A stretch of DNA of 16,902 bases from a virus (Duplodnaviria > Heunggongvirae > Uroviricota > Caudoviricetes). The stretch is taken from positions 1-16,902 of IMG/VR virus record IMGVR_UViG_2778260993_000018; one strand, given 5' to 3'. Below the pieces are notes generated by a model. The model was given only the letters and a program-made list of their open reading frames with translations. It was not told the origin of the DNA and made no database searches. Made by a program: the position numbers and the translations under genes. Below, one piece after another: positions 7,056 to 14,168 of the stretch (position 1 is the first letter of the stretch; each line of letters begins with the position of its first letter).

Positions 7056-7760
7056 TTATCCGACCCTGTTATACTGGATTGACTGATGAATGAGAACTTT
7101 CCCCATTATGAATAGATGTTCTTCAGTTGATTCACTTATAAACCATTCCTTGTAGGCCGGATTGTCTGATATAACAGCAAGTTGCATCCCTTGCATTTGC
7201 AGGCGTTTGATATGGAAAGTGTGCCCAAAAATAAAAATATAGATACCGTCAGTTTCAAAATTTCTGACGGATACGTCGACAAACACCTGATCTCCTGCAC
7301 ACAGAGTAGGAGCCATGCTGTCGCCATCAACTGTTATCATCTTTATGATATTTGCTGGCCTGCTACAGAACAGACGTCTTGCGGCGTCATGTGAAAATTC
7401 TATAGCATGGACCGTTTCTGCAAAATCTGAAACAAGGAATGTTCCTGGTCCCGCGCTGGCAGCGATATCCAGGACTTCCACACGAAAAATATCCTTATCA
7501 TTTTCCAGCGGGGAATATGATACCTGTGGTGTCGGATTGCAGGATGTGCTTTCTTCTGGGGTCATAGGACCAACACCGTACGATAGCCACTCGGGGCGCA
7601 CGTTCAGGGTATTGGCTATCTCCACAACTTTCCTGGAGCCTGTGGCACCATTAACCAGTTTATTTACGCTCGATTGAGCCATGCCAACCTCTCTGGCCAG
7701 TTTTCCCTGCGAGTATCCGCGGATAGTCATAGCTAACTGTAGCCTGTCTGAAAAGCTCAT
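7056..7760 (-). CDS. cI: CI-like prophage repressor (N-terminal HTH, C-terminal LexA/S24 autopeptidase domain), 234 aa
   Basis: HTH (..RGYSQGKLAREVGMAQSSVNKLVNG..) and S24 signature (..VDGDSMAPTL.. with downstream ..IMGKVL..). ATG at 7760 preceded by AAGGAGG with a 5-nt spacer; the upstream 25 codons of the ORF-track call are probably untranslated. Divergent from cro. Confidence 0.85.
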   Translation of the reverse strand: MSFSDRLQLAMTIRGYSQGKLAREVGMAQSSVNKLVNGATGSRKVVEIANTLNVRPEWLSYGVGPMTPEESTSCNPTPQVSYSPLENDKDIFRVEVLDIAASAGPGTFLVSDFAETVHAIEFSHDAARRLFCSRPANIIKMITVDGDSMAPTLCAGDQVFVDVSVRNFETDGIYIFIFGHTFHIKRLQMQGMQLAVISDNPAYKEWFISESTEEHLFIMGKVLIHQSIQYNRVG

Positions 7761-7786
7761 AAGTCCTCCTTTTTCTGCCCTTTTAG

Positions 7787-7858
7787 TATATCGCCTTAGC
7801 GATATATACACAAACCGCTTTTCCGTACATTGCAATCGCTTTAATCAATCGCTATAGT
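7787..7858. promoter_or_regulatory. cI-cro intergenic switch region: candidate operators with rightward and leftward promoters
   Basis: 20-bp palindrome TATATCGC-CTTA-GCGATATA (7787-7806). Direct repeat CAATCGCT at 7833-7840 and 7846-7853. Candidate rightward promoter TTGCAA (7830-7835), 17-nt spacer, TATAGT (7853-7858). Candidate leftward maintenance promoter on the minus strand: TTGTGT (7813..7808) and TATACT (7790..7785). Confidence 0.5.
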
Positions 7859-8853: not shown

Positions 8854-9687
8854 ATGCTCACAGGTAACACATGCAAGTACTCAATCGCTGGTTCCGTGAT
8901 GGAAGGGGGCGTCGCGTCCACATTATACGCTGGGAGCCTGAAACACAGCGGGTTATTTACCTGCGTGATGGTTATCCGCATGAATGCTTCAGCCCGCTGT
9001 GGTTGTTTCGTCGTGATTTTGTTGAGTGTGAAGCGCCACCAGCATATTGATTCTGCAATTCCGGGACGTTACACTGTTCTGGCACCTTATAAAGCGGGTG
9101 CCGGGGGTCGCAGCCCGGAATTGCATACGGCGATATACGACGCGCCAGCGTCTTTTTTATCGTCCGCGCTCACGCACGCCAGAATTATGGTGGGCTGGGC
9201 AGGGGAGCCGAAAGGCTCGCCGGTTTCCGTATGCGCCGGTACTGCGAACCCTGTTCAGTCTGCCACCAGTGAGTTTCGCAGCTCCGGTGGTGGAAGTTAT
9301 CCATTGCATACGGAGGCTGCCATCATGGCTACAGACCCAACTTCCCCATACCTGAAAATCGAAGTCGTCAACGGCAAGGCCGTTATTTTCTCCCTGCATG
9401 TTGCCTGCCATTTCAAGCGCATGCACCAGAACATCGTCGACAAAATCGAGTATCTGAACTGCTCGCGCGAATTTTTTACCCGCAATTTCATACCGGGTAC
9501 TTATCACATCTATGGTGACTCCCTGCGTGGTTATTACATCACCTTTGATGGCCTGATGATGCTTCAGCTTGGGTTAAGTCTACGCACAATGCGGTACTAC
9601 GAGAGCTGCATTGAAGCATTCCATGAGGCAGGGAACAGCCTGAATCTTACCGCTTTCCGCCGTAATCAGTGGGAGGCGCGTCCATGA
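8854..9687 (+). CDS. Rha-family (Phage_pRha-like) regulatory protein; start uncertain (Rha-like domain begins at ATG 9325)
   Basis: C-terminal half (..KIEVVNGKAVIFSLHVACHFKRMHQNIVDKIEYL..FIPGTYHIYGDSLRGYYITFDGLMMLQLG..) fits the Rha pattern. GGAGG with 8-nt spacer precedes the ATG at 9325. The upstream in-frame 157 codons contain a promoter-like box and a terminator hairpin and may not all be coding. Ends ..EARP with an ATGA overlap to the next ORF. Confidence 0.55.
   Translation: MLTGNTCKYSIAGSVMEGGVASTLYAGSLKHSGLFTCVMVIRMNASARCGCFVVILLSVKRHQHIDSAIPGRYTVLAPYKAGAGGRSPELHTAIYDAPASFLSSALTHARIMVGWAGEPKGSPVSVCAGTANPVQSATSEFRSSGGGSYPLHTEAAIMATDPTSPYLKIEVVNGKAVIFSLHVACHFKRMHQNIVDKIEYLNCSREFFTRNFIPGTYHIYGDSLRGYYITFDGLMMLQLGLSLRTMRYYESCIEAFHEAGNSLNLTAFRRNQWEARP
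9047..9158 (+). ncRNA. Candidate small RNA / leader unit A: promoter box, 5' stem-loop and intrinsic terminator (RNA about 9082-9158)
   Basis: TTGATT (9047-9052), 17-nt spacer, TACACT (9070-9075). 5' stem CTGGCACC/GGTGCCGG (9079-9104). Terminator GACGC-gcca-GCGTC followed by six T (9139-9158). Paralogous to unit B. Confidence 0.35.
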
Positions 9688-9878
9688 TTAGTTACGAAAT
9701 TATTATTTCCACAACTGAATACAGAAACGATGTATCAGTTCGCACGGATGTATCTGTCTGGCACCGTCGCTATAAATCCAGAAAAACAGCGGAACTGAAA
9801 GCGGCAGAGATGTGTGAAACCATCTCAATGAAAGGTAGCCCGGTTAAATACGTAACTACGGCGGAGGTGCGTCCATGA
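9684..9878 (+). CDS. Hypothetical small protein, 64 aa
   Basis: ATG at 9684 within the junction GGAGGCGCGTCCATGA (ATGA overlap with the upstream stop). Ends ..AEVRP and is followed by the same junction. AT-rich relative to its neighbours. Confidence 0.45.
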   Translation: MISYEIIISTTEYRNDVSVRTDVSVWHRRYKSRKTAELKAAEMCETISMKGSPVKYVTTAEVRP

Positions 9879-10723
9879 TCCGCTACCTGAATATTGATTC
9901 TGCCATTCCGGGACGTTACACTGTTCTGGCACCTTATAAAGCGGGTGCTGGGATTGGCGTCCTGAAATTTACAGAAGAGCATAACCGCGCTCATGCGGTT
10001 TTTTCGTGTCATGAGCATTGCTACGCCCAAATTATGGTGGGGCGTGCAGGGGCATCGCAAGATGCGCCGGGTTCTTCTGTGACCGGTTACGCCAACCCTG
10101 TACGTCTCACCACCTCTGTGATTGGCGTCCCATGTGGTGAGTGTTTTAAACTCACAGAAGGGGCTGTCATCATGACTACTCTCCCAACCATCGCTCAACC
10201 TGAACTTTGCATTGTTGCTGGCAAAGTGGTTACTTCTTCTCTGTCTGTTGCTAGTTATTTCCGCAAACAACACAAAAATGTCATTCAAAAAATTGCGTCT
10301 CTTGAATGCTCTGCCGAATTTACTGAGCTGAATTTTCAGCCCAGTGATTACACTGACGTATCAGGCCGCAAACTTCCCTGCTACCAAATCACCCGCGACG
10401 GCTTTGCGTTTCTTGCTATGGGCTTCACTGGTAAACGTGCTACCCGGTTCAAAGAGGCATACATCAATGCCTTTAACCAGATGGAGAAGAGTTTATCAGG
10501 TGCCGATGCGTCTGATATGTCAGCTGTCGCACGAAACGCCAGAGGCGTATACCTGCATTTGCGTGAAATCCATCAAATCTGGACAAGCCAGCTTTATCCA
10601 ATGCTTAAGGCTGTTGAATCTCCGCTGGCCAGCAAACTGTACGACCGTGTAGGTGATGCTGTTTTTGGTGCTGCACTTGTTGATTCCTGGCTGAATGGTT
10701 CTGACAAGGAGGTGCGTCCATGA
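9875..10723 (+). CDS. Rha-family (Phage_pRha-like) regulatory protein, 282 aa; Rha-like domain begins near ATG 10172
   Basis: ..PELCIVAGKVVTSSLSVASYFRKQHKNVIQKIASLE..NFQPSDYTDVSGRKLPCYQITRDGFAFLAMGFTGKRATRFKEAYINAFNQME.. fits the Rha pattern. Start at 9875 uses the conserved junction GGAGGTGCGTCCATGA. N-terminal 99 codons are paralogous to the leader of the previous gene. Confidence 0.6.
   Translation: MIRYLNIDSAIPGRYTVLAPYKAGAGIGVLKFTEEHNRAHAVFSCHEHCYAQIMVGRAGASQDAPGSSVTGYANPVRLTTSVIGVPCGECFKLTEGAVIMTTLPTIAQPELCIVAGKVVTSSLSVASYFRKQHKNVIQKIASLECSAEFTELNFQPSDYTDVSGRKLPCYQITRDGFAFLAMGFTGKRATRFKEAYINAFNQMEKSLSGADASDMSAVARNARGVYLHLREIHQIWTSQLYPMLKAVESPLASKLYDRVGDAVFGAALVDSWLNGSDKEVRP
9894..10004 (+). 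ncRNA. Candidate small RNA / leader unit B: promoter box, 5' stem-loop and intrinsic terminator (RNA about 9929-10004)
   Basis: TTGATT (9894-9899), 17-nt spacer, TACACT (9917-9922). 5' stem preserved through a C-to-T change giving a G-U wobble. Terminator AACCGC-gctcat-GCGGTT with a T-run (9983-10004) at the same relative position as in unit A, with a different stem sequence. Confidence 0.35.
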
Positions 10724-10944
10724 TCCGCCACATCGTTAATTTCCTGTATCACCGATACAACCATTGCCCCCGTGTGGGGCAGTGGTTCACCACCAGCAAC
10801 GGACACGTTCTGCGGGTTTGCCTGGTCAATACAGAAAGCCAGAAGGTTGTCTGCCAGGTTCAGGGACGTACTCATACCCTGAGTTATCCGCTGGTGGCGT
10901 TTCAGTCCGGAAAAATGTTTAAGCGTCTGGGAGGTGCCGTATGA
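10720..10944 (+). CDS. Hypothetical small protein, 74 aa
   Basis: Starts at the conserved junction GGAGGTGCGTCCATGA (10708-10723). Stop overlaps the ATG of the replication initiator through a related junction GGAGGTGCCGTATGA. Confidence 0.45.
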   Translation: MIRHIVNFLYHRYNHCPRVGQWFTTSNGHVLRVCLVNTESQKVVCQVQGRTHTLSYPLVAFQSGKMFKRLGGAV

Positions 10945-11882
10945 GTAGCAAAATCCTAGGTAATGTCTGGGATGCATGTGCAGCATATGGCATCAAAGGT
11001 GCAAAACTGATGATTATGGCGCGCCTGGCGGATTATTCGAATGATGACGGGGTGTGCTACCCAGGTGTTGAAACCATATGTCGACAGCTTGGATTGGGAG
11101 AAAGTACAGTCAGAACGGCAATCTCCGAACTGGAGGCTGATGGCTGGCTGACGCGTCAGTCACGCCGCAAAGGTAACCGTAATACGTCCAATCTTTATCA
11201 TCTGAATGCTGATCGGCTTGAGCTGCTTGCCAGAACAGAGCGGGATAAGGTTGCAGAACTGAAACAGCAGCGCAGACTTTCAGTATTACGTGACCCTTCA
11301 GATTCTGAACCTTCAAAATCTGAACCTTCAAAATCTGAACCGTCAGAATCTGTATGTTCAGGCGTGTTTGACCCTTCAGATTCTGGCAAAAATACGCGTT
11401 TGACCCTTCAGAATCTGACCCCAGATCCACAAGGTTTAAAACATGAACCACCAGTAAATTCAAAACATGAACCGCAAGATATTGGCGCATCCGCTGACGC
11501 GTCTGCACCAGCGCGTTCTGCCAGACAGGAATATTCACCGGAATTTGAACAGGCCTGGCAGGAATATCCCAAACGTGCTGGTGGTAATTCCAAGTCAGCA
11601 GCCTTCAAAGCCTGGAAAGCCCGAATCAGGGAAGGTGTGACACCAGAAACCATGCTCAACGGTGTGAAACGCTATGCTGCCTGGGTGCGTGTCTCAGGAA
11701 ATACCGGCACCCAGTTCGTGAAGCAGGCGTCGACGTTCTTTGGACCCGATCGTCACTTCGAAGATTTCTGGCAACAGCCAGCAGCTCCCGGAGGTGGGCG
11801 ACAGCGACAGGTCGATGTCCTGGCTGGCCTGGGAGCCATGTCTGACAAATTCGGTAAATCCAGTGACAAATTGACATTCTGA
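10941..11882 (+). CDS. Phage replication initiation protein (lambda O-like replisome organiser; N-terminal HTH, internal iteron-encoded linker), 313 aa
   Basis: N-terminal helix-turn-helix-like region (..YPGVETICRQLGLGESTVRTAISELEADGWLTRQ..). Internal tandem DNA repeats encode a low-complexity DPSDSEPSKSEPSKSEPSES linker. Immediately followed by DnaC-like and DnaB-like genes. Confidence 0.75.
   Translation: MSSKILGNVWDACAAYGIKGAKLMIMARLADYSNDDGVCYPGVETICRQLGLGESTVRTAISELEADGWLTRQSRRKGNRNTSNLYHLNADRLELLARTERDKVAELKQQRRLSVLRDPSDSEPSKSEPSKSEPSESVCSGVFDPSDSGKNTRLTLQNLTPDPQGLKHEPPVNSKHEPQDIGASADASAPARSARQEYSPEFEQAWQEYPKRAGGNSKSAAFKAWKARIREGVTPETMLNGVKRYAAWVRVSGNTGTQFVKQASTFFGPDRHFEDFWQQPAAPGGGRQRQVDVLAGLGAMSDKFGKSSDKLTF
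11291..11417. repeat. Iteron array (candidate phage origin of replication) inside the initiator gene
   Basis: Six copies of a motif with palindromic core TCAGAWTCTGA: four in tandem at 15-bp spacing (about 11292-11352), two more at about 11369-11385 and 11400-11417. Followed by an A-rich stretch with a duplicated AAAACATGAACC (11441-11480). Confidence 0.7.
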
Positions 11883-11892
11883 GGTGACAGCG

Positions 11893-12771
11893 ATGATGAC
11901 GTTTAACCTGCGTGAACAACAAACAAGACTACAGGCGCGGATGGATGAGTTACGGGCAGAGATTGCATTTGCTCAGAAGGGCGAAAAACCATGGCCTTAT
12001 CGTTCCTGCTGGATGCGTGAAGGGCGCGGGTGTTGCGAAAAACATGGCGAATACCACACACATATTCTGGTGTGGAGGGATCGTAATGGCGAGGACAGAG
12101 AAAAAATTTCATGCTGCCCTGACTGCTTGATAGCTGAGGCCAACGATTTGACCATGGAGCTGTCGTCCCTCAAGGCGGAAGAACTGACTGATAACGCCGG
12201 AATTGCTCTGCGTTTTCGGGACTGCGAGTTTGATAATTATCTGGAGGTTAATCCTGACGCAGCCAGAAATCTTGCGGCCTGTCGCCGCTATGCGGAGAAC
12301 TGGCCAGATATGCTGGAGAACGGTACCAGTCTTGTTATGACCGGCAGTTGCGGTACCGGGAAAAATCATCTGGCGGTATCAATGGCAAAACACATCATCC
12401 GTAACTATCTGGCCAGTGTGGAGATCACCGACGTGATGCGCCTTACCCGGGCTGTGAAAAACTGCTGGCGGAATGACAGTGAAAAAACAGCGGATGACGT
12501 CATTGAGCATTATGCGTCACTGGATTTGCTGATTGTCGACGAAGTCGGCGTTCAGTTTGGCAGTGCGGCTGAAATGGCCATTTTGCAGGAAATTATCAAT
12601 GCCCGGTATGAGGGTATTTTGCCAACTATCCTGATCAGCAACCTTTCACCGGAAGAATTGTGGGCGTTCATCAGTCCCCGGATTGCCGACAGGATCACCG
12701 ATGGCGGGCGCAACTGGTTGTCGTTTAACTGGCCCAGCTACCGTTCTCGTATCGGAGGTGTTGCCGCATGA
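11893..12771 (+). CDS. DnaC-like helicase loader (IstB-like AAA+ ATPase) with N-terminal Cys/His cluster
   Basis: Walker A ..GSCGTGKNHLA.. and Walker B ..LLIVDEVG... N-terminal CCEKHGEYHTH..CCPDC cluster. ATG at 11893 with GAGG 8 nt upstream; the ORF-track GTG at 11884 is the alternative. Confidence 0.85.
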   Translation: MMTFNLREQQTRLQARMDELRAEIAFAQKGEKPWPYRSCWMREGRGCCEKHGEYHTHILVWRDRNGEDREKISCCPDCLIAEANDLTMELSSLKAEELTDNAGIALRFRDCEFDNYLEVNPDAARNLAACRRYAENWPDMLENGTSLVMTGSCGTGKNHLAVSMAKHIIRNYLASVEITDVMRLTRAVKNCWRNDSEKTADDVIEHYASLDLLIVDEVGVQFGSAAEMAILQEIINARYEGILPTILISNLSPEELWAFISPRIADRITDGGRNWLSFNWPSYRSRIGGVAA

Positions 12772-14168
12772 CCAGCCAGAACACCCCGGCATGGCGTAAC
12801 GATGACCTGGAAGGCGCTGTCATCGGTGCGTTTTTTCTGCGTGGGGCCGATCCGGAAGTGATGGATATTCTGGCCACACTTCCGGCGGATGTATTTTTTG
12901 TGCGTCAGTACCGGGATATTTACGCGGGGATTTGCAGACAGGCTCGCATATCCGGCGTCATTGACCCCGTACTGCTGTGCAATGAGATGCCGGAACTTGC
13001 CCCGGTGATTACCGACACCGGACGCAAAACCTGGGTGAAGTCTTCACTGGAGCACTATGTCGCAGCGTTGCGGCGCAATGCCGCACTGCGCGATGCAGAA
13101 AAAACACTGACTGAAGCATTACAGAATTTACGTGATGCGTATACCTGTGAAGCAGCCGAGGATGCCCTGAAGGATGCGCAGAACATGATGGCCTCACTGT
13201 CGACCGGAAAGGGCGTCATTCAGCCGGTTCACATTGATGATGTCCTTCCGGAAGTGGTCGACCGTGTTGAATGCCGCAATCAGGGACTGGAGAAATCCAG
13301 GGCGCTGATGACCGGTATTGATGAACTGGACGCAAAAACGGGCGGTATGGAGCCCGGAGACCTGGTATTCATTGCCGCCCGTCCTTCGATGGGGAAAACC
13401 GAACTTGCGCTGGACATCATCGACAAGGTGACTGAGCAGGGGCATGGCGTGCTTCTGTTCACCATGGAGATGGCGAACATCCAGATTGGTGAACGTATGG
13501 TGTCTGCTGCAGGGGGAATGCCGGTATCCCGTCTTAAGTCTGTTGCCCGTTTTGAAGACGAAGACTGGGCACGTTTCTCACAGGGCGTGGGACGAATGAC
13601 GGGGCGTAATATCTGGATGGTGGACCAGGCAAACCTGACCATTGATGAGATATGTGCAACCACGAAGCACCACCGGATGAAACACCCGGAAACGGCGCTG
13701 GTGGTGGTCGATTACCTCGGCCTGATTAAAACCCGCAGCACGGGGCGTCACGACCTTGCGGTGGGGGAAATCTCAAAGGGACTTAAAAGCCTGGCAAAAT
13801 CCGGCGGTTTTCCGCTGATTGCTCTGAGCCAGCTCTCCCGCGGCGTGGAATCCAGACCCAATAAACGCCCAATGAACTCGGACCTGAAAAACTCCGGGGA
13901 AATCGAGGCGGATGCCGACATCATTCTGATGCTTTACAGGGATGAGGTATACAACCCGGAAACTCAGGCCAGAGGCATAGCAGAAATCAACATCACGAAA
14001 CAGCGTAATGGCACGCTCGGGACCATTTACCGGCGTTTTCATAACGGACATTTTCTGCCTGTGGACCAGGAGAGTGCCCGGGTTCTTTCCACACCCATGA
14101 CGCCGGGCAATCCGCGCAGATACAGCAATAACCGCATGTCGGGCAGTAAAACGGAGCGTTTATTTTGA
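12768..14168 (+). CDS. DnaB-family replicative DNA helicase, 466 aa
   Basis: RecA-like core with Walker A ..ARPSMGKTELALDI.., Walker B ..LVVVDYLGLI.. and ..ALSQLSRGVESR... Start overlaps the loader stop (ATGA). Confidence 0.9.
   Translation: MTSQNTPAWRNDDLEGAVIGAFFLRGADPEVMDILATLPADVFFVRQYRDIYAGICRQARISGVIDPVLLCNEMPELAPVITDTGRKTWVKSSLEHYVAALRRNAALRDAEKTLTEALQNLRDAYTCEAAEDALKDAQNMMASLSTGKGVIQPVHIDDVLPEVVDRVECRNQGLEKSRALMTGIDELDAKTGGMEPGDLVFIAARPSMGKTELALDIIDKVTEQGHGVLLFTMEMANIQIGERMVSAAGGMPVSRLKSVARFEDEDWARFSQGVGRMTGRNIWMVDQANLTIDEICATTKHHRMKHPETALVVVDYLGLIKTRSTGRHDLAVGEISKGLKSLAKSGGFPLIALSQLSRGVESRPNKRPMNSDLKNSGEIEADADIILMLYRDEVYNPETQARGIAEINITKQRNGTLGTIYRRFHNGHFLPVDQESARVLSTPMTPGNPRRYSNNRMSGSKTERLF

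What the first reader, a model, noticed from the sequence alone, without database searches (positions are those of the whole stretch)
11291..11480. Origin-like iteron array embedded in the initiator gene, encoding a repetitive EPSKS linker
Six copies of a motif with palindromic core TCAGAWTCTGA, four in tandem at 15-bp (5-codon) phasing, lie inside the O-like gene, followed by an A-rich stretch with a duplicated 12-mer. This mirrors lambda, where the origin iterons lie within O. The in-frame phasing makes the DNA repeats double as a low-complexity interdomain linker.
Basis: partly seen in the sequence, partly recalled or inferred. Interest (0 to 1): 0.45.

Follow-up and report, generated by a model that had tools for sequence, protein, structure and literature searches.

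The report
Phage replication origin inside initiator gene
The repeats are almost certainly the replication origin of a phiP27-type Shiga-toxin prophage, placed inside the gene of the protein that binds it, as in phage lambda; it is an ordinary design in an initiator family where it had not been described.

Summary
Six copies of TCAGAWTCTGA (at most 1 mismatch) lie at 11298-11418, and nowhere else in the 16.9 kb window (0.3 expected by chance). Four are tandem at 15 bp. An A-rich stretch with a duplicated 12-mer follows.

The gene (10941-11882) encodes a winged-helix N-domain (Pfam HTH_36), a predicted disordered linker and a helical C-domain. DnaC-like and DnaB-like genes follow it.

The repeats are constrained as DNA, not only as peptide:
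- In 69 relatives, synonymous sites are scrambled in the N-domain (major-codon fraction 0.53) but nearly fixed in the repeat and A-rich segment (0.90).
- The last copy is read in a different frame in this clade.
- The motif is about 150 times denser in the linker than in the flanks across 80 species.
- 110 of 111 viral contigs that carry the distal repeat encode the N-domain just upstream.
- Phages with an identical C-domain but a different N-domain carry different repeats. The swap point is exactly 11480.
- More distant HTH_36 initiators (phi24B, a Vibrio phage) carry their own palindromic repeats at the same place.

The lambda-like origin reading is therefore supported, but only by comparison. 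Binding and origin firing are untested. The protein shows no detectable sequence similarity to lambda O. This is a new member of a known kind, of modest interest.

The parts
10941..11882 (+). Replication initiator gene (313 aa). It holds the lambda O position in the early-right operon of a phiP27-type prophage.
   Evidence: ORF. PHROG 270 'replication initiation protein', E=1e-79. Pfam HTH_36 at residues 17-70. 99.9% identical to Stx2_KH16-043 and 90.7% to phiP27 L17.
10941..11291 (+). Codes for the N-terminal winged-helix domain (aa 1-117), the presumed iteron-binding part.
   Evidence: Pfam HTH_36, GntR and MarR-type hits. The AlphaFold2 model has four helices, a beta-hairpin wing and a long helix at 90-116. 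The best fold matches are MarR/ArsR-type winged-helix dimers. The helix at residues 54-66 in the model and the wing residues are invariant in 9 diverse relatives.
11291..11308 (+). Iteron 1, TGACCCTTCAGATTCTGA (core 11298-11308). First unit of the 15-bp tandem block.
11306..11323 (+). Iteron 2, TGAACCTTCAAAATCTGA (core 11313-11323, 1 mismatch).
   Evidence: This is the unit type whose copy number varies among E. coli prophages.
11321..11338 (+). Iteron 3, TGAACCTTCAAAATCTGA (core 11328-11338, 1 mismatch).
   Evidence: One 15-bp unit of the tandem block is absent in phiP27; MAFFT places the gap at about 11304-11318.
11336..11353 (+). Iteron 4, TGAACCGTCAGAATCTGT (core 11343-11353, 1 mismatch). 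Last tandem unit.
11369..11386 (+). Iteron 5, TGACCCTTCAGATTCTGG (core 11376-11386). Non-tandem, 33 bp after iteron 4.
   Evidence: Invariant in all E. coli relatives examined.
11401..11418 (+). Iteron 6, TGACCCTTCAGAATCTGA (core 11408-11418). It is 32 bp after iteron 5 and is read in a different frame (LTLQNLT).
   Evidence: A 1-nt deletion upstream and a 1-nt insertion downstream, relative to other subfamilies, shift the frame while the DNA motif is kept. It corresponds to the near-universal distal repeat CCCGYCAGAATCTGGNGGGGATCC of the family.
11424..11479 (+). A-rich stretch, the presumed DNA-unwinding element. It has three GAWCC-headed units and the duplicated 12-mer AAAACATGAACC (11438-11449, 11462-11473).
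   Evidence: 65% A+T, with 49% A and 16% T. Its 30-50 bp windows rank in the least stable 3-4% of the window. AT skew is +0.42 to +0.47. The homologous segment in 69 relatives has fixed synonymous sites: V=GTA, S=TCA and D=GAT, all 100%.
11480..11882 (+). Codes for the C-terminal domain (aa 181-313) plus the stop codon. This is a separate exchange module, presumably the contact to the helicase and its loader.
   Evidence: 99.8% identical from 11480 onward to 'replication protein O' genes of several Stx2 phages whose N-halves are unrelated. The same N-domain plus repeats is joined to at least 3 unrelated C-domain types in other species.
11884..12771 (+). DnaC-like helicase loader gene.
   Evidence: Pfam IstB_IS21 and Bac_DnaA. 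PHROG 50. NCBIfam DnaC, below its cut-off.
12768..14168 (+). DnaB-family replicative helicase gene.
   Evidence: Pfam DnaB_C, E=8e-74. PHROG 19. TIGR00665, E=3e-92.

Best explanation
Positions 11291-11479 are the origin of replication of this phiP27-type prophage, built into the coding sequence of its own initiator.

Proposed mechanism:
1. Dimers of the initiator's N-terminal winged-helix domain bind the palindromic cores (TCAGA-W-TCTGA) of the six repeats. The three full 17-mers at 11291, 11369 and 11401 are probably the strong sites.
2. The resulting nucleoprotein complex destabilises the adjacent A-rich stretch (11424-11479).
3. The C-terminal domain brings in the phage's own DnaB-type helicase with its DnaC-type loader, both encoded immediately downstream.
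4. Because the repeats must also be translated, they encode a Ser/Pro/acidic disordered tether between the two domains.

Shown here: the anatomy, nucleotide-level selection, co-inheritance of the repeats with the N-domain, and the domain and gene context. Inferred: binding, unwinding, helicase recruitment and origin firing.
For: 1. The motif is real and unique to this spot. It is the only iterated repeat array in the window.

2. The gene context is a replication module: initiator, then DnaC-like, then DnaB-like, downstream of CI-like and Cro-like genes and upstream of a Q-like gene.

3. There is DNA-level constraint.
- In S-x-S peptides of the linker of 78 relatives, the first Ser is TCA in 279 of 311 cases and the second is TCT in 242 of 311. 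Elsewhere in the same genes TCA is 17% and TCT 9.5% of Ser codons.
- In 69 distinct genes, amino-acid-conserved columns have a major-codon fraction of 0.53 in the N-domain and 0.90 in the distal-repeat/A-rich segment. F TTT, E GAA, D GAT, V GTA and S TCA are all at 100% (Mann-Whitney p=2e-6).

4. The distal repeat keeps its DNA but is read in another frame in this clade, through a -1/+1 pair of indels.

5. Family-wide location. In 80 Enterobacterales loci the motif occurs at 14.06 per kb in the linker and 0.09 per kb in the flanks. 78 of the 80 loci have at least 2 copies. 110 of 111 viral contigs with the distal repeat have the N-domain about 397 nt upstream; the exception is an IS insertion.

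6. Specificity follows the N-domain.
- Stx2_EH2201 has the same C-domain from 11480 on but another N-domain, with GGGAAAV repeats and its own AT-rich 12-bp tandem.
- phi24B 'O' and Vibrio phage D77 'O-like' are about 40% identical in the winged helix. Each has three 21-bp palindromic repeats of its own sequence right after that domain.

7. The helix at residues 54-66 of the model and the wing residues are invariant across the family, as is the repeat core.

8. The layout matches annotated lambda ori: four dyad-symmetric iterons inside O, then an A-rich tract on the same strand. Synonymous iteron mutations abolish replication of a lambda-type Stx-phage plasmid (PMC7466680).

9. AlphaFold2 predicts residues 118-195 as disordered, between a winged-helix domain and a helical domain.
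Against: - There is no experimental evidence for binding or origin firing in this family. The held literature does not mention it.
- The A-rich stretch is only 65% A+T and is not the least stable DNA in the window. Intergenic regions at 4.6-6 kb are less stable.
- The 15-bp tandem spacing is about 1.4 helical turns, so neighbouring sites face roughly opposite sides. This differs from lambda's spacing of about 2 turns. The tandem units may be weak or accessory sites.
- In the wider family 313 of 315 motif copies are in the S-x-S frame, so some protein-level constraint on the linker also exists.
- Symmetry beyond the 11-bp core showed no significant covariation.
Confidence: 0.8

Rival explanations
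1. The repeats are initiator-binding sites, but their role is regulatory rather than origin firing. Examples would be autoregulation, a transcription roadblock that controls the downstream helicase genes, or titration and handcuffing of the initiator. The actual start site would lie elsewhere.
For: The evidence for nucleotide-level selection and for co-inheritance with the N-domain only shows that the sites are bound by something that travels with the N-domain. It does not show that replication starts here. The A-rich stretch is not the easiest DNA to melt in the window.
Against: The conserved unit includes the A-rich segment with fixed synonymous sites, not just the binding sites. The whole block (N-domain, repeats and A-rich tract) is swapped as one module ending at 11480. 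No other repeat array exists in the window. The same layout is the proven origin in lambda (PMC7466680) and in SPP1 oriL (PMC6316719).
Confidence: 0.08
2. The repeats are only a low-complexity protein linker made by replication slippage of a 15-bp unit. The DNA sequence itself has no function.
For: The tandem unit number varies from 2 to 6 among E. coli prophages, and protein lengths step by 5 aa. Nearly all copies are in one frame. The encoded segment is predicted to be disordered.
Against: Synonymous sites are nearly fixed, including in the single-copy distal segment that cannot be homogenised by slippage. Ser codon choice is asymmetric, TCA then TCT, and this creates the palindrome. One copy is kept in a different reading frame. 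Unrelated or distant N-domains carry different palindromic repeats at the same place.
Confidence: 0.05
3. The conserved nucleotides act in the mRNA, as a structure that affects translation or stability of the initiator message.
For: The RNA fold of 11281-11480 is more stable than shuffles (-47.4 kcal/mol, z=-4.26).
Against: The predicted stems pair one palindromic repeat with another, which any such array would do. In five close relatives no pair shows a compensatory change and the covariation term is unfavourable, at +1.6. Copy-number changes of 2-6 units would rearrange any fixed fold. No Rfam family matches here.
Confidence: 0.03
4. The conserved DNA is recognised by something other than the initiator. 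This could be a host protein such as Dam/SeqA at the GATC sites, or it could be a conserved junction sequence that promotes recombination between modules.
For: The segment ends exactly at a mosaic junction. GATCC is fixed twice in the wider family at a synonymous position.
Against: This does not explain a palindromic motif repeated 2-8 times, or why the repeat sequence changes when the N-domain changes. This window has lost two of the three GATC sites that phiP27 has. No DnaA box lies within 11007-12033.
Confidence: 0.04

Closest known systems
Phage lambda ori inside gene O (four 18-19 bp dyad-symmetric iterons followed by an A-rich tract), with the O/P system
   Same: The origin lies inside the initiator ORF, between an N-terminal DNA-binding domain and a C-terminal partner-binding domain. 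Several dyad-symmetric repeats lie in one orientation, with an A-rich tract on the same strand just downstream. The repeats encode the interdomain linker. The N-domain and repeats are exchanged together between phages.
   Different: There is no detectable sequence relation to lambda O: Pfam HTH_36 versus Phage_rep_O, BLASTP with no significant match, and hhalign probability 0.2%. The repeat core is 11 bp rather than 18-19 bp. Four units are tandem at 15 bp rather than about 20-24 bp. The partners are a DnaC-type loader plus the phage's own DnaB-type helicase, instead of lambda P with host DnaB.
Six-iteron origins of lambda-type Stx phages (933W and the 'P27' of the Wegrzyn laboratory; PMC7466680)
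   Same: These are Shiga-toxin prophages with extra iteron copies that lengthen the initiator's linker. There, iteron function was proven by synonymous mutations.
   Different: Those iterons are of the lambda type (ATCCCTCAAAACGAGGGA) in a lambda-type O gene. The 'P27' of that work is not the replication module of phiP27 (NC_003356), which matches this window.
Bacillus phage SPP1 oriL inside gene 38, with gp39 loader and gp40 DnaB-family helicase (PMC6316719)
   Same: The gene order is the same: origin-binding protein with the origin inside its own gene, then helicase loader, then DnaB-family helicase. The origin is direct repeats plus an AT-rich unwinding element.
   Different: The host phylum differs. 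Homology of the initiator to gp38 was not tested here. SPP1 has a second origin copy (oriR); none is seen in this window.
Iteron-controlled plasmid origins (Rep_3-type initiators such as RepA, RepE and pi)
   Same: Repeated initiator-binding sites lie next to an AT-rich unwinding element, and the initiator has a winged-helix fold.
   Different: Plasmid iterons usually lie outside the rep gene and are bound by monomers as direct repeats. Here the sites are palindromic and intragenic, and the protein gives no Rep_3 hit.

Membership tests
Lambda-type phage origin (origin embedded in the initiator gene) | Several repeats with dyad symmetry, in one orientation, inside the initiator ORF between its two domains | tested here: met
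   Six copies at 11298-11418 inside ORF 10941-11882.
Lambda-type phage origin (origin embedded in the initiator gene) | An A+T-rich, easily melted tract directly downstream of the repeats | tested here: inconclusive
   11431-11479 is 65% A+T with strong A/T strand bias. It ranks in the least stable 3-4% of the window but is not its minimum. Its sequence is conserved at synonymous sites in relatives.
Lambda-type phage origin (origin embedded in the initiator gene) | Repeat sequence is specified by, and inherited with, the N-terminal domain, while the C-terminal domain is a separate module | tested here: met
   The mosaic junction is at 11480. There are three C-domain types on one N-domain plus repeats. 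Other HTH_36 initiators carry other repeats. Co-occurrence is 110 of 111.
Lambda-type phage origin (origin embedded in the initiator gene) | The initiator binds the repeats, and replication starts there | not testable with these tools
   This needs EMSA or footprinting, a mini-replicon, or marker-frequency analysis.
Lambda O protein family (Pfam PF04492 Phage_rep_O) | The N-terminal domain matches the Phage_rep_O profile or lambda O itself | tested here: not met
   The window protein has no PF04492 hit, while lambda O scores E=6e-36. BLASTP finds nothing significant. hhalign probability is 0.2%.
HTH_36-type phage replication initiators (Pfam PF13730; PHROG 270) | A winged-helix domain matching PF13730 in a protein that matches a phage replication-initiator family over its length | tested here: met
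   PF13730 scores 46.7 bits against a cut-off of 25. PHROG 270 matches residues 2-312 with E=1e-79. The model and fold matches are winged helix.
Iteron plasmid replicons (Rep_3 initiators) | A Rep_3-type initiator with two winged-helix domains, and direct-repeat iterons outside the rep gene | tested here: not met
   There is no Rep_3 hit. The repeats are intragenic and palindromic.
SPP1-type replication module (origin binder, loader, DnaB helicase) | Gene order is initiator (with internal origin), then helicase loader, then DnaB-family helicase | tested here: met
   The genes are 10941-11882, 11884-12771 and 12768-14168. The SPP1 description is in PMC6316719. Sequence homology to gp38 was not tested.

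The most novel reading that the evidence does not exclude
The 15-bp tandem block may act as an evolvable dial on the origin. Its unit number differs between otherwise near-identical E. coli prophages (2 to 6 units), and up to 8 motif copies occur in a Providencia relative. This could tune initiation strength or initiator titration.

The same repeat core is also kept across prophages of more than 60 Enterobacterales species whose initiators are only about 60% identical. Co-resident prophages of this family might therefore fire, or compete for, each other's origins.
Probability: 0.2. Interest if true: 0.5.

Novelty: new member of a known kind. Interest (0 to 1): 0.33.

Why it matters
The result gives a concrete, testable origin for a replication module that is widespread. 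It occurs in phiP27-type Stx2 prophages, in 57 of 5426 complete E. coli genomes, in Shigella serotype-converting phages SfII and SfIV, and in prophages of dozens of Enterobacterales genera.

Public annotation mostly labels the initiator as 'helix-turn-helix domain-containing protein' or 'GntR family transcriptional regulator'. Replication of Stx prophages is tied to toxin output, so knowing the origin and its binding sites helps studies of induction and of inhibitors. The synonymous-site test used here is also a simple way to find origins hidden in initiator genes.

It does not change the picture of how phage origins work.

Tried and rejected
- **Homology to lambda O.** Pfam, BLASTP and hhalign were all negative. 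'O-like' is kept only as an analogy.
- **RNA structure.** The fold energy is good, but there is no covariation and the stems are repeat-to-repeat pairings. There is no Rfam hit in the region.
- **Extended dyad symmetry with covarying arms in the distal repeat.** Positions +/-5 to +/-9 are mostly symmetric, but symmetric pairs do not clearly exceed the count expected if the two arms varied independently (14 versus 11.1 at +/-6). This is not used as evidence.
- **Origin-only elements (satellites carrying the repeats without the initiator).** 110 of 111 viral contigs have the N-domain upstream, and the exception (L174) is an IS insertion.
- **DnaA boxes near the repeats.** None within 11007-12033 at up to 1 mismatch.
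- **Promoters or terminators inside the array.** Nothing above chance.
- **Literature.** No paper in the held library mentions iterons or an origin for this module. The Eru classification papers list HTH_36 proteins but never an origin. Searching for the repeat sequence itself found only unrelated primers.
- **Solved structures.** No close relative by sequence. The whole-protein model has low confidence (mean pLDDT 53.6), so fold matches are used only to say 'winged helix'.

Full report
**What is there**

The window is the early region of a lambdoid-style prophage. In order it carries an integrase (1-1287, minus strand), an IS transposase, a CI-like repressor (7056-7835, minus strand), a Cro-like gene, Ant/Rha and Ash/Rha regulators, then the gene in question (10941-11882). 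After that come a DnaC-like loader (11884-12771), a DnaB-family helicase (12768-14168), a DUF968/HNH gene and a Q-like antiterminator. The gene is 99.9% identical to one in Stx2a phage Stx2_KH16-043 and 90.7% identical to L17 of the Stx2e phage phiP27, where it is annotated only as a helix-turn-helix protein.

**The observation**

TCAGAWTCTGA with at most one mismatch occurs six times, at 11298, 11313, 11328, 11343, 11376 and 11408. It occurs nowhere else in the 16.9 kb window. Chance expectation is 0.30, and none of 200 shuffles reaches six.

A longer 17-mer, TGACCCTTCAGAWTCTG, is exact at 11291, 11369 and 11401. The first four copies form a 15-bp tandem array. The spacings are 15, 15, 15, 33 and 32 bp. 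The exact 12-mer AAAACATGAACC lies at 11438-11449 and 11462-11473, within a stretch that is 65% A+T, with 49% A and 16% T. No other iterated repeat array exists in the window.

The description is therefore correct. The one correction is that the sixth copy is not in the S-x-S reading frame.

**The protein**

Residues 17-70 match Pfam HTH_36, with weaker GntR, MarR and PaaX-type hits. The whole protein matches PHROG 270, 'replication initiation protein'.

An AlphaFold2 model built on 19 homologues gives a winged-helix domain at residues 1-88, followed by a long helix at 90-116. Residues 118-195 have pLDDT around 30, and a helical C-domain follows. The best structural matches of the N-domain are MarR/ArsR-type winged-helix dimers, at weak E-values. 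Residues 118-195 correspond to nt 11292-11525, so the repeats and the A-rich stretch encode the predicted disordered tether.

**Is the DNA itself under selection?**

A scan of one genome per species found 80 loci in Enterobacterales that encode an N-domain 59-87% identical to this one.
- In those loci the motif TCAGAWTCTG (at most 1 mismatch) occurs at 14.06 per kb in the 280-nt linker segment and at 0.09 per kb in the flanks. 78 of the 80 loci have at least two copies.
- Conditioning only on the peptide S-x-S in the linker, the first Ser is TCA in 279 of 311 cases and the second is TCT in 242 of 311. Elsewhere in the same genes TCA is 17% and TCT 9.5% of Ser codons. This asymmetric choice is what makes the palindrome.
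- In 69 distinct genes, columns with a conserved amino acid have a major-codon fraction of 0.53 in the N-domain, so synonymous sites there are scrambled. In the single-copy distal-repeat/A-rich segment the fraction is 0.90, with F TTT, E GAA, D GAT, V GTA and S TCA all at 100% (p=2e-6). That segment cannot be homogenised by slippage.
- In the clade that includes this window, the distal repeat is read as LT(L/R)QNLT instead of PSESGG. A 1-nt deletion upstream and a 1-nt insertion downstream shift the frame over the repeat, while its DNA sequence is kept.

The constraint is therefore on the nucleotides.

**Do the repeats go with the N-domain?**

Nine Stx2 phage records are at least 99.5% identical to this gene from nt 11480 onward, and further Stx1 and Stx2 records are 91-96% identical, but all have an unrelated 5' half. 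In one of them, Stx2_EH2201, that half carries five GGGAAAV repeats and its own AT-rich 12-bp tandem at the same position. Similarity to this window begins at ATTGGCGCATCC, right after the A-rich tract.

Conversely, the same N-domain plus repeats is joined to at least three unrelated C-domain types in other species.

More distant HTH_36 initiators are about 40% identical in the winged helix. Each has three 21-bp palindromic repeats of its own sequence just after that domain: GGGGTGGGGCAGGAGCTGCCC in phi24B 'O' and CCTAGTGACAAAATGTCACCA in Vibrio phage D77.

In IMG/VR, 110 of 111 contigs that carry the family's distal repeat and have enough upstream DNA encode the N-domain about 397 nt upstream on the same strand. 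The one exception is an IS insertion into the gene. The helix at residues 54-66 of the model and the wing residues are invariant in nine diverse relatives, matching the invariance of the repeat core.

**Variation**

Among E. coli prophages the tandem block has two to six 15-bp units, while the two non-tandem copies never change. Homologue lengths step by 5 aa, from 298 to 328. phiP27 has one unit fewer than this window.

**Comparison with known systems**

In the lambda record, four dyad-symmetric iterons are annotated inside O and are followed by an A-rich tract on the same strand. In lambda-type Stx phages, six such iterons lengthen O, and synonymous iteron mutations abolish plasmid replication (PMC7466680). 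The 'P27' of that work has lambda-type iterons and is not the module seen here. In SPP1, oriL lies inside gene 38 and is followed by the loader gp39 and the DnaB-family helicase gp40 (PMC6316719). That is the same gene order as here.

The present element works like these, but the initiator is not a member of the lambda O family. There is no PF04492 hit, no BLASTP similarity, and the hhalign probability is 0.2%.

There are three differences in detail:
- The palindromic core is 11 bp rather than 18-19 bp.
- The tandem spacing is 15 bp. Neighbouring sites therefore face roughly opposite sides of the helix, whereas copies 2, 4, 5 and 6 (spacings 30, 33 and 32 bp) lie roughly on one face. This last point is my inference.
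- The A-rich tract is only moderately unstable.

**Rivals**

- A pure protein linker is contradicted by the synonymous-site and frame evidence.
- An mRNA structure has a good energy (z=-4.26), but the stems are repeat-to-repeat pairings, no compensatory changes are seen, and the copy number varies.
- A role as regulatory binding sites without origin firing cannot be excluded by computation. It is less likely because the A-rich tract is conserved and exchanged together with the sites.
- No DnaA boxes, promoters or terminators stand out in the region.

**Verdict**

The mechanism (binding, unwinding, helicase loading) is inferred by analogy. The two papers read that classify Stx-phage replication regions do not mention iterons or an origin for this module, and the other searches of the held library found no description either. 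This is a new member of a known kind: useful for annotation and for work on Stx-phage replication, but not surprising to a specialist.

Noticed in passing
window 9082-9270 and 9929-10117 (+): Two tandem pairs of Rfam isrK (57 bits) followed by C4 antisense RNA (80 bits). Each pair lies inside one of the two adjacent Ash/Rha-family ORFs (8854-9687 and 9875-10723). It looks like a duplicated P1/P7-style antisense-controlled antirepressor cassette.
   Followed up: no
window 11424-11479, compared with L001 3468-3524: phiP27 and most relatives have GATC at the head of each A-rich unit (GATCC, fixed at a synonymous site in 69 species). This window keeps only one, at 11424, and the other two are GAACC. 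This suggests a Dam/SeqA link to the origin that this phage has partly lost.
   Followed up: partly
L090 662-684 (lambda 39161-39183): To the right of its A-rich tract, lambda ori has CGTCAGAGAATTCTGGCGAATCC. This resembles this family's distal repeat CGTCAGAATCTGGCGGGGATCC. The AT-rich tandem of Stx2_EH2201 also contains TCAGAGAATAC. It may be chance, or a shared feature of otherwise unrelated origins.
   Followed up: no
literature (PMC7466680) versus L001 (NC_003356): There is a name collision. The 'P27' Stx phage whose O protein and six iterons were studied biochemically has lambda-type iterons. It is not the replication module of phiP27, which matches this window.
   Followed up: yes
L091 1730-1795 (phi24B 'O') and L093 1705-1770 (Vibrio phage D77): Each has three 21-bp palindromic repeats, spaced 21 and 24 bp, directly after a related winged-helix domain. 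In phi24B they encode a Gly/Ala-rich linker. These are likely unannotated origins of those phages. phi24B's core is CAG-N3-CTG, like the one here.
   Followed up: partly
L174 about 643-1190: An IS transposase gene ends about 50 nt upstream of the distal repeat and replaces the 5' part of the initiator gene. It is the only one of 111 viral contigs with the repeat but no N-domain.
   Followed up: yes
window 2657-3676 (-): A transposase ORF (PHROG 2199) sits inside the prophage's early-left region, between the integrase and the immunity genes.
   Followed up: no
window 10941-11882, public annotation of homologues: Hundreds of near-identical proteins are named 'helix-turn-helix domain-containing protein' or 'GntR family transcriptional regulator'. 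Only a UniRef name and some phage records call it a replication protein.
   Followed up: no
window 11110-11538 (-): A 142-aa mechanical ORF lies on the opposite strand across the repeat region. No evidence for or against expression was gathered.
   Followed up: no
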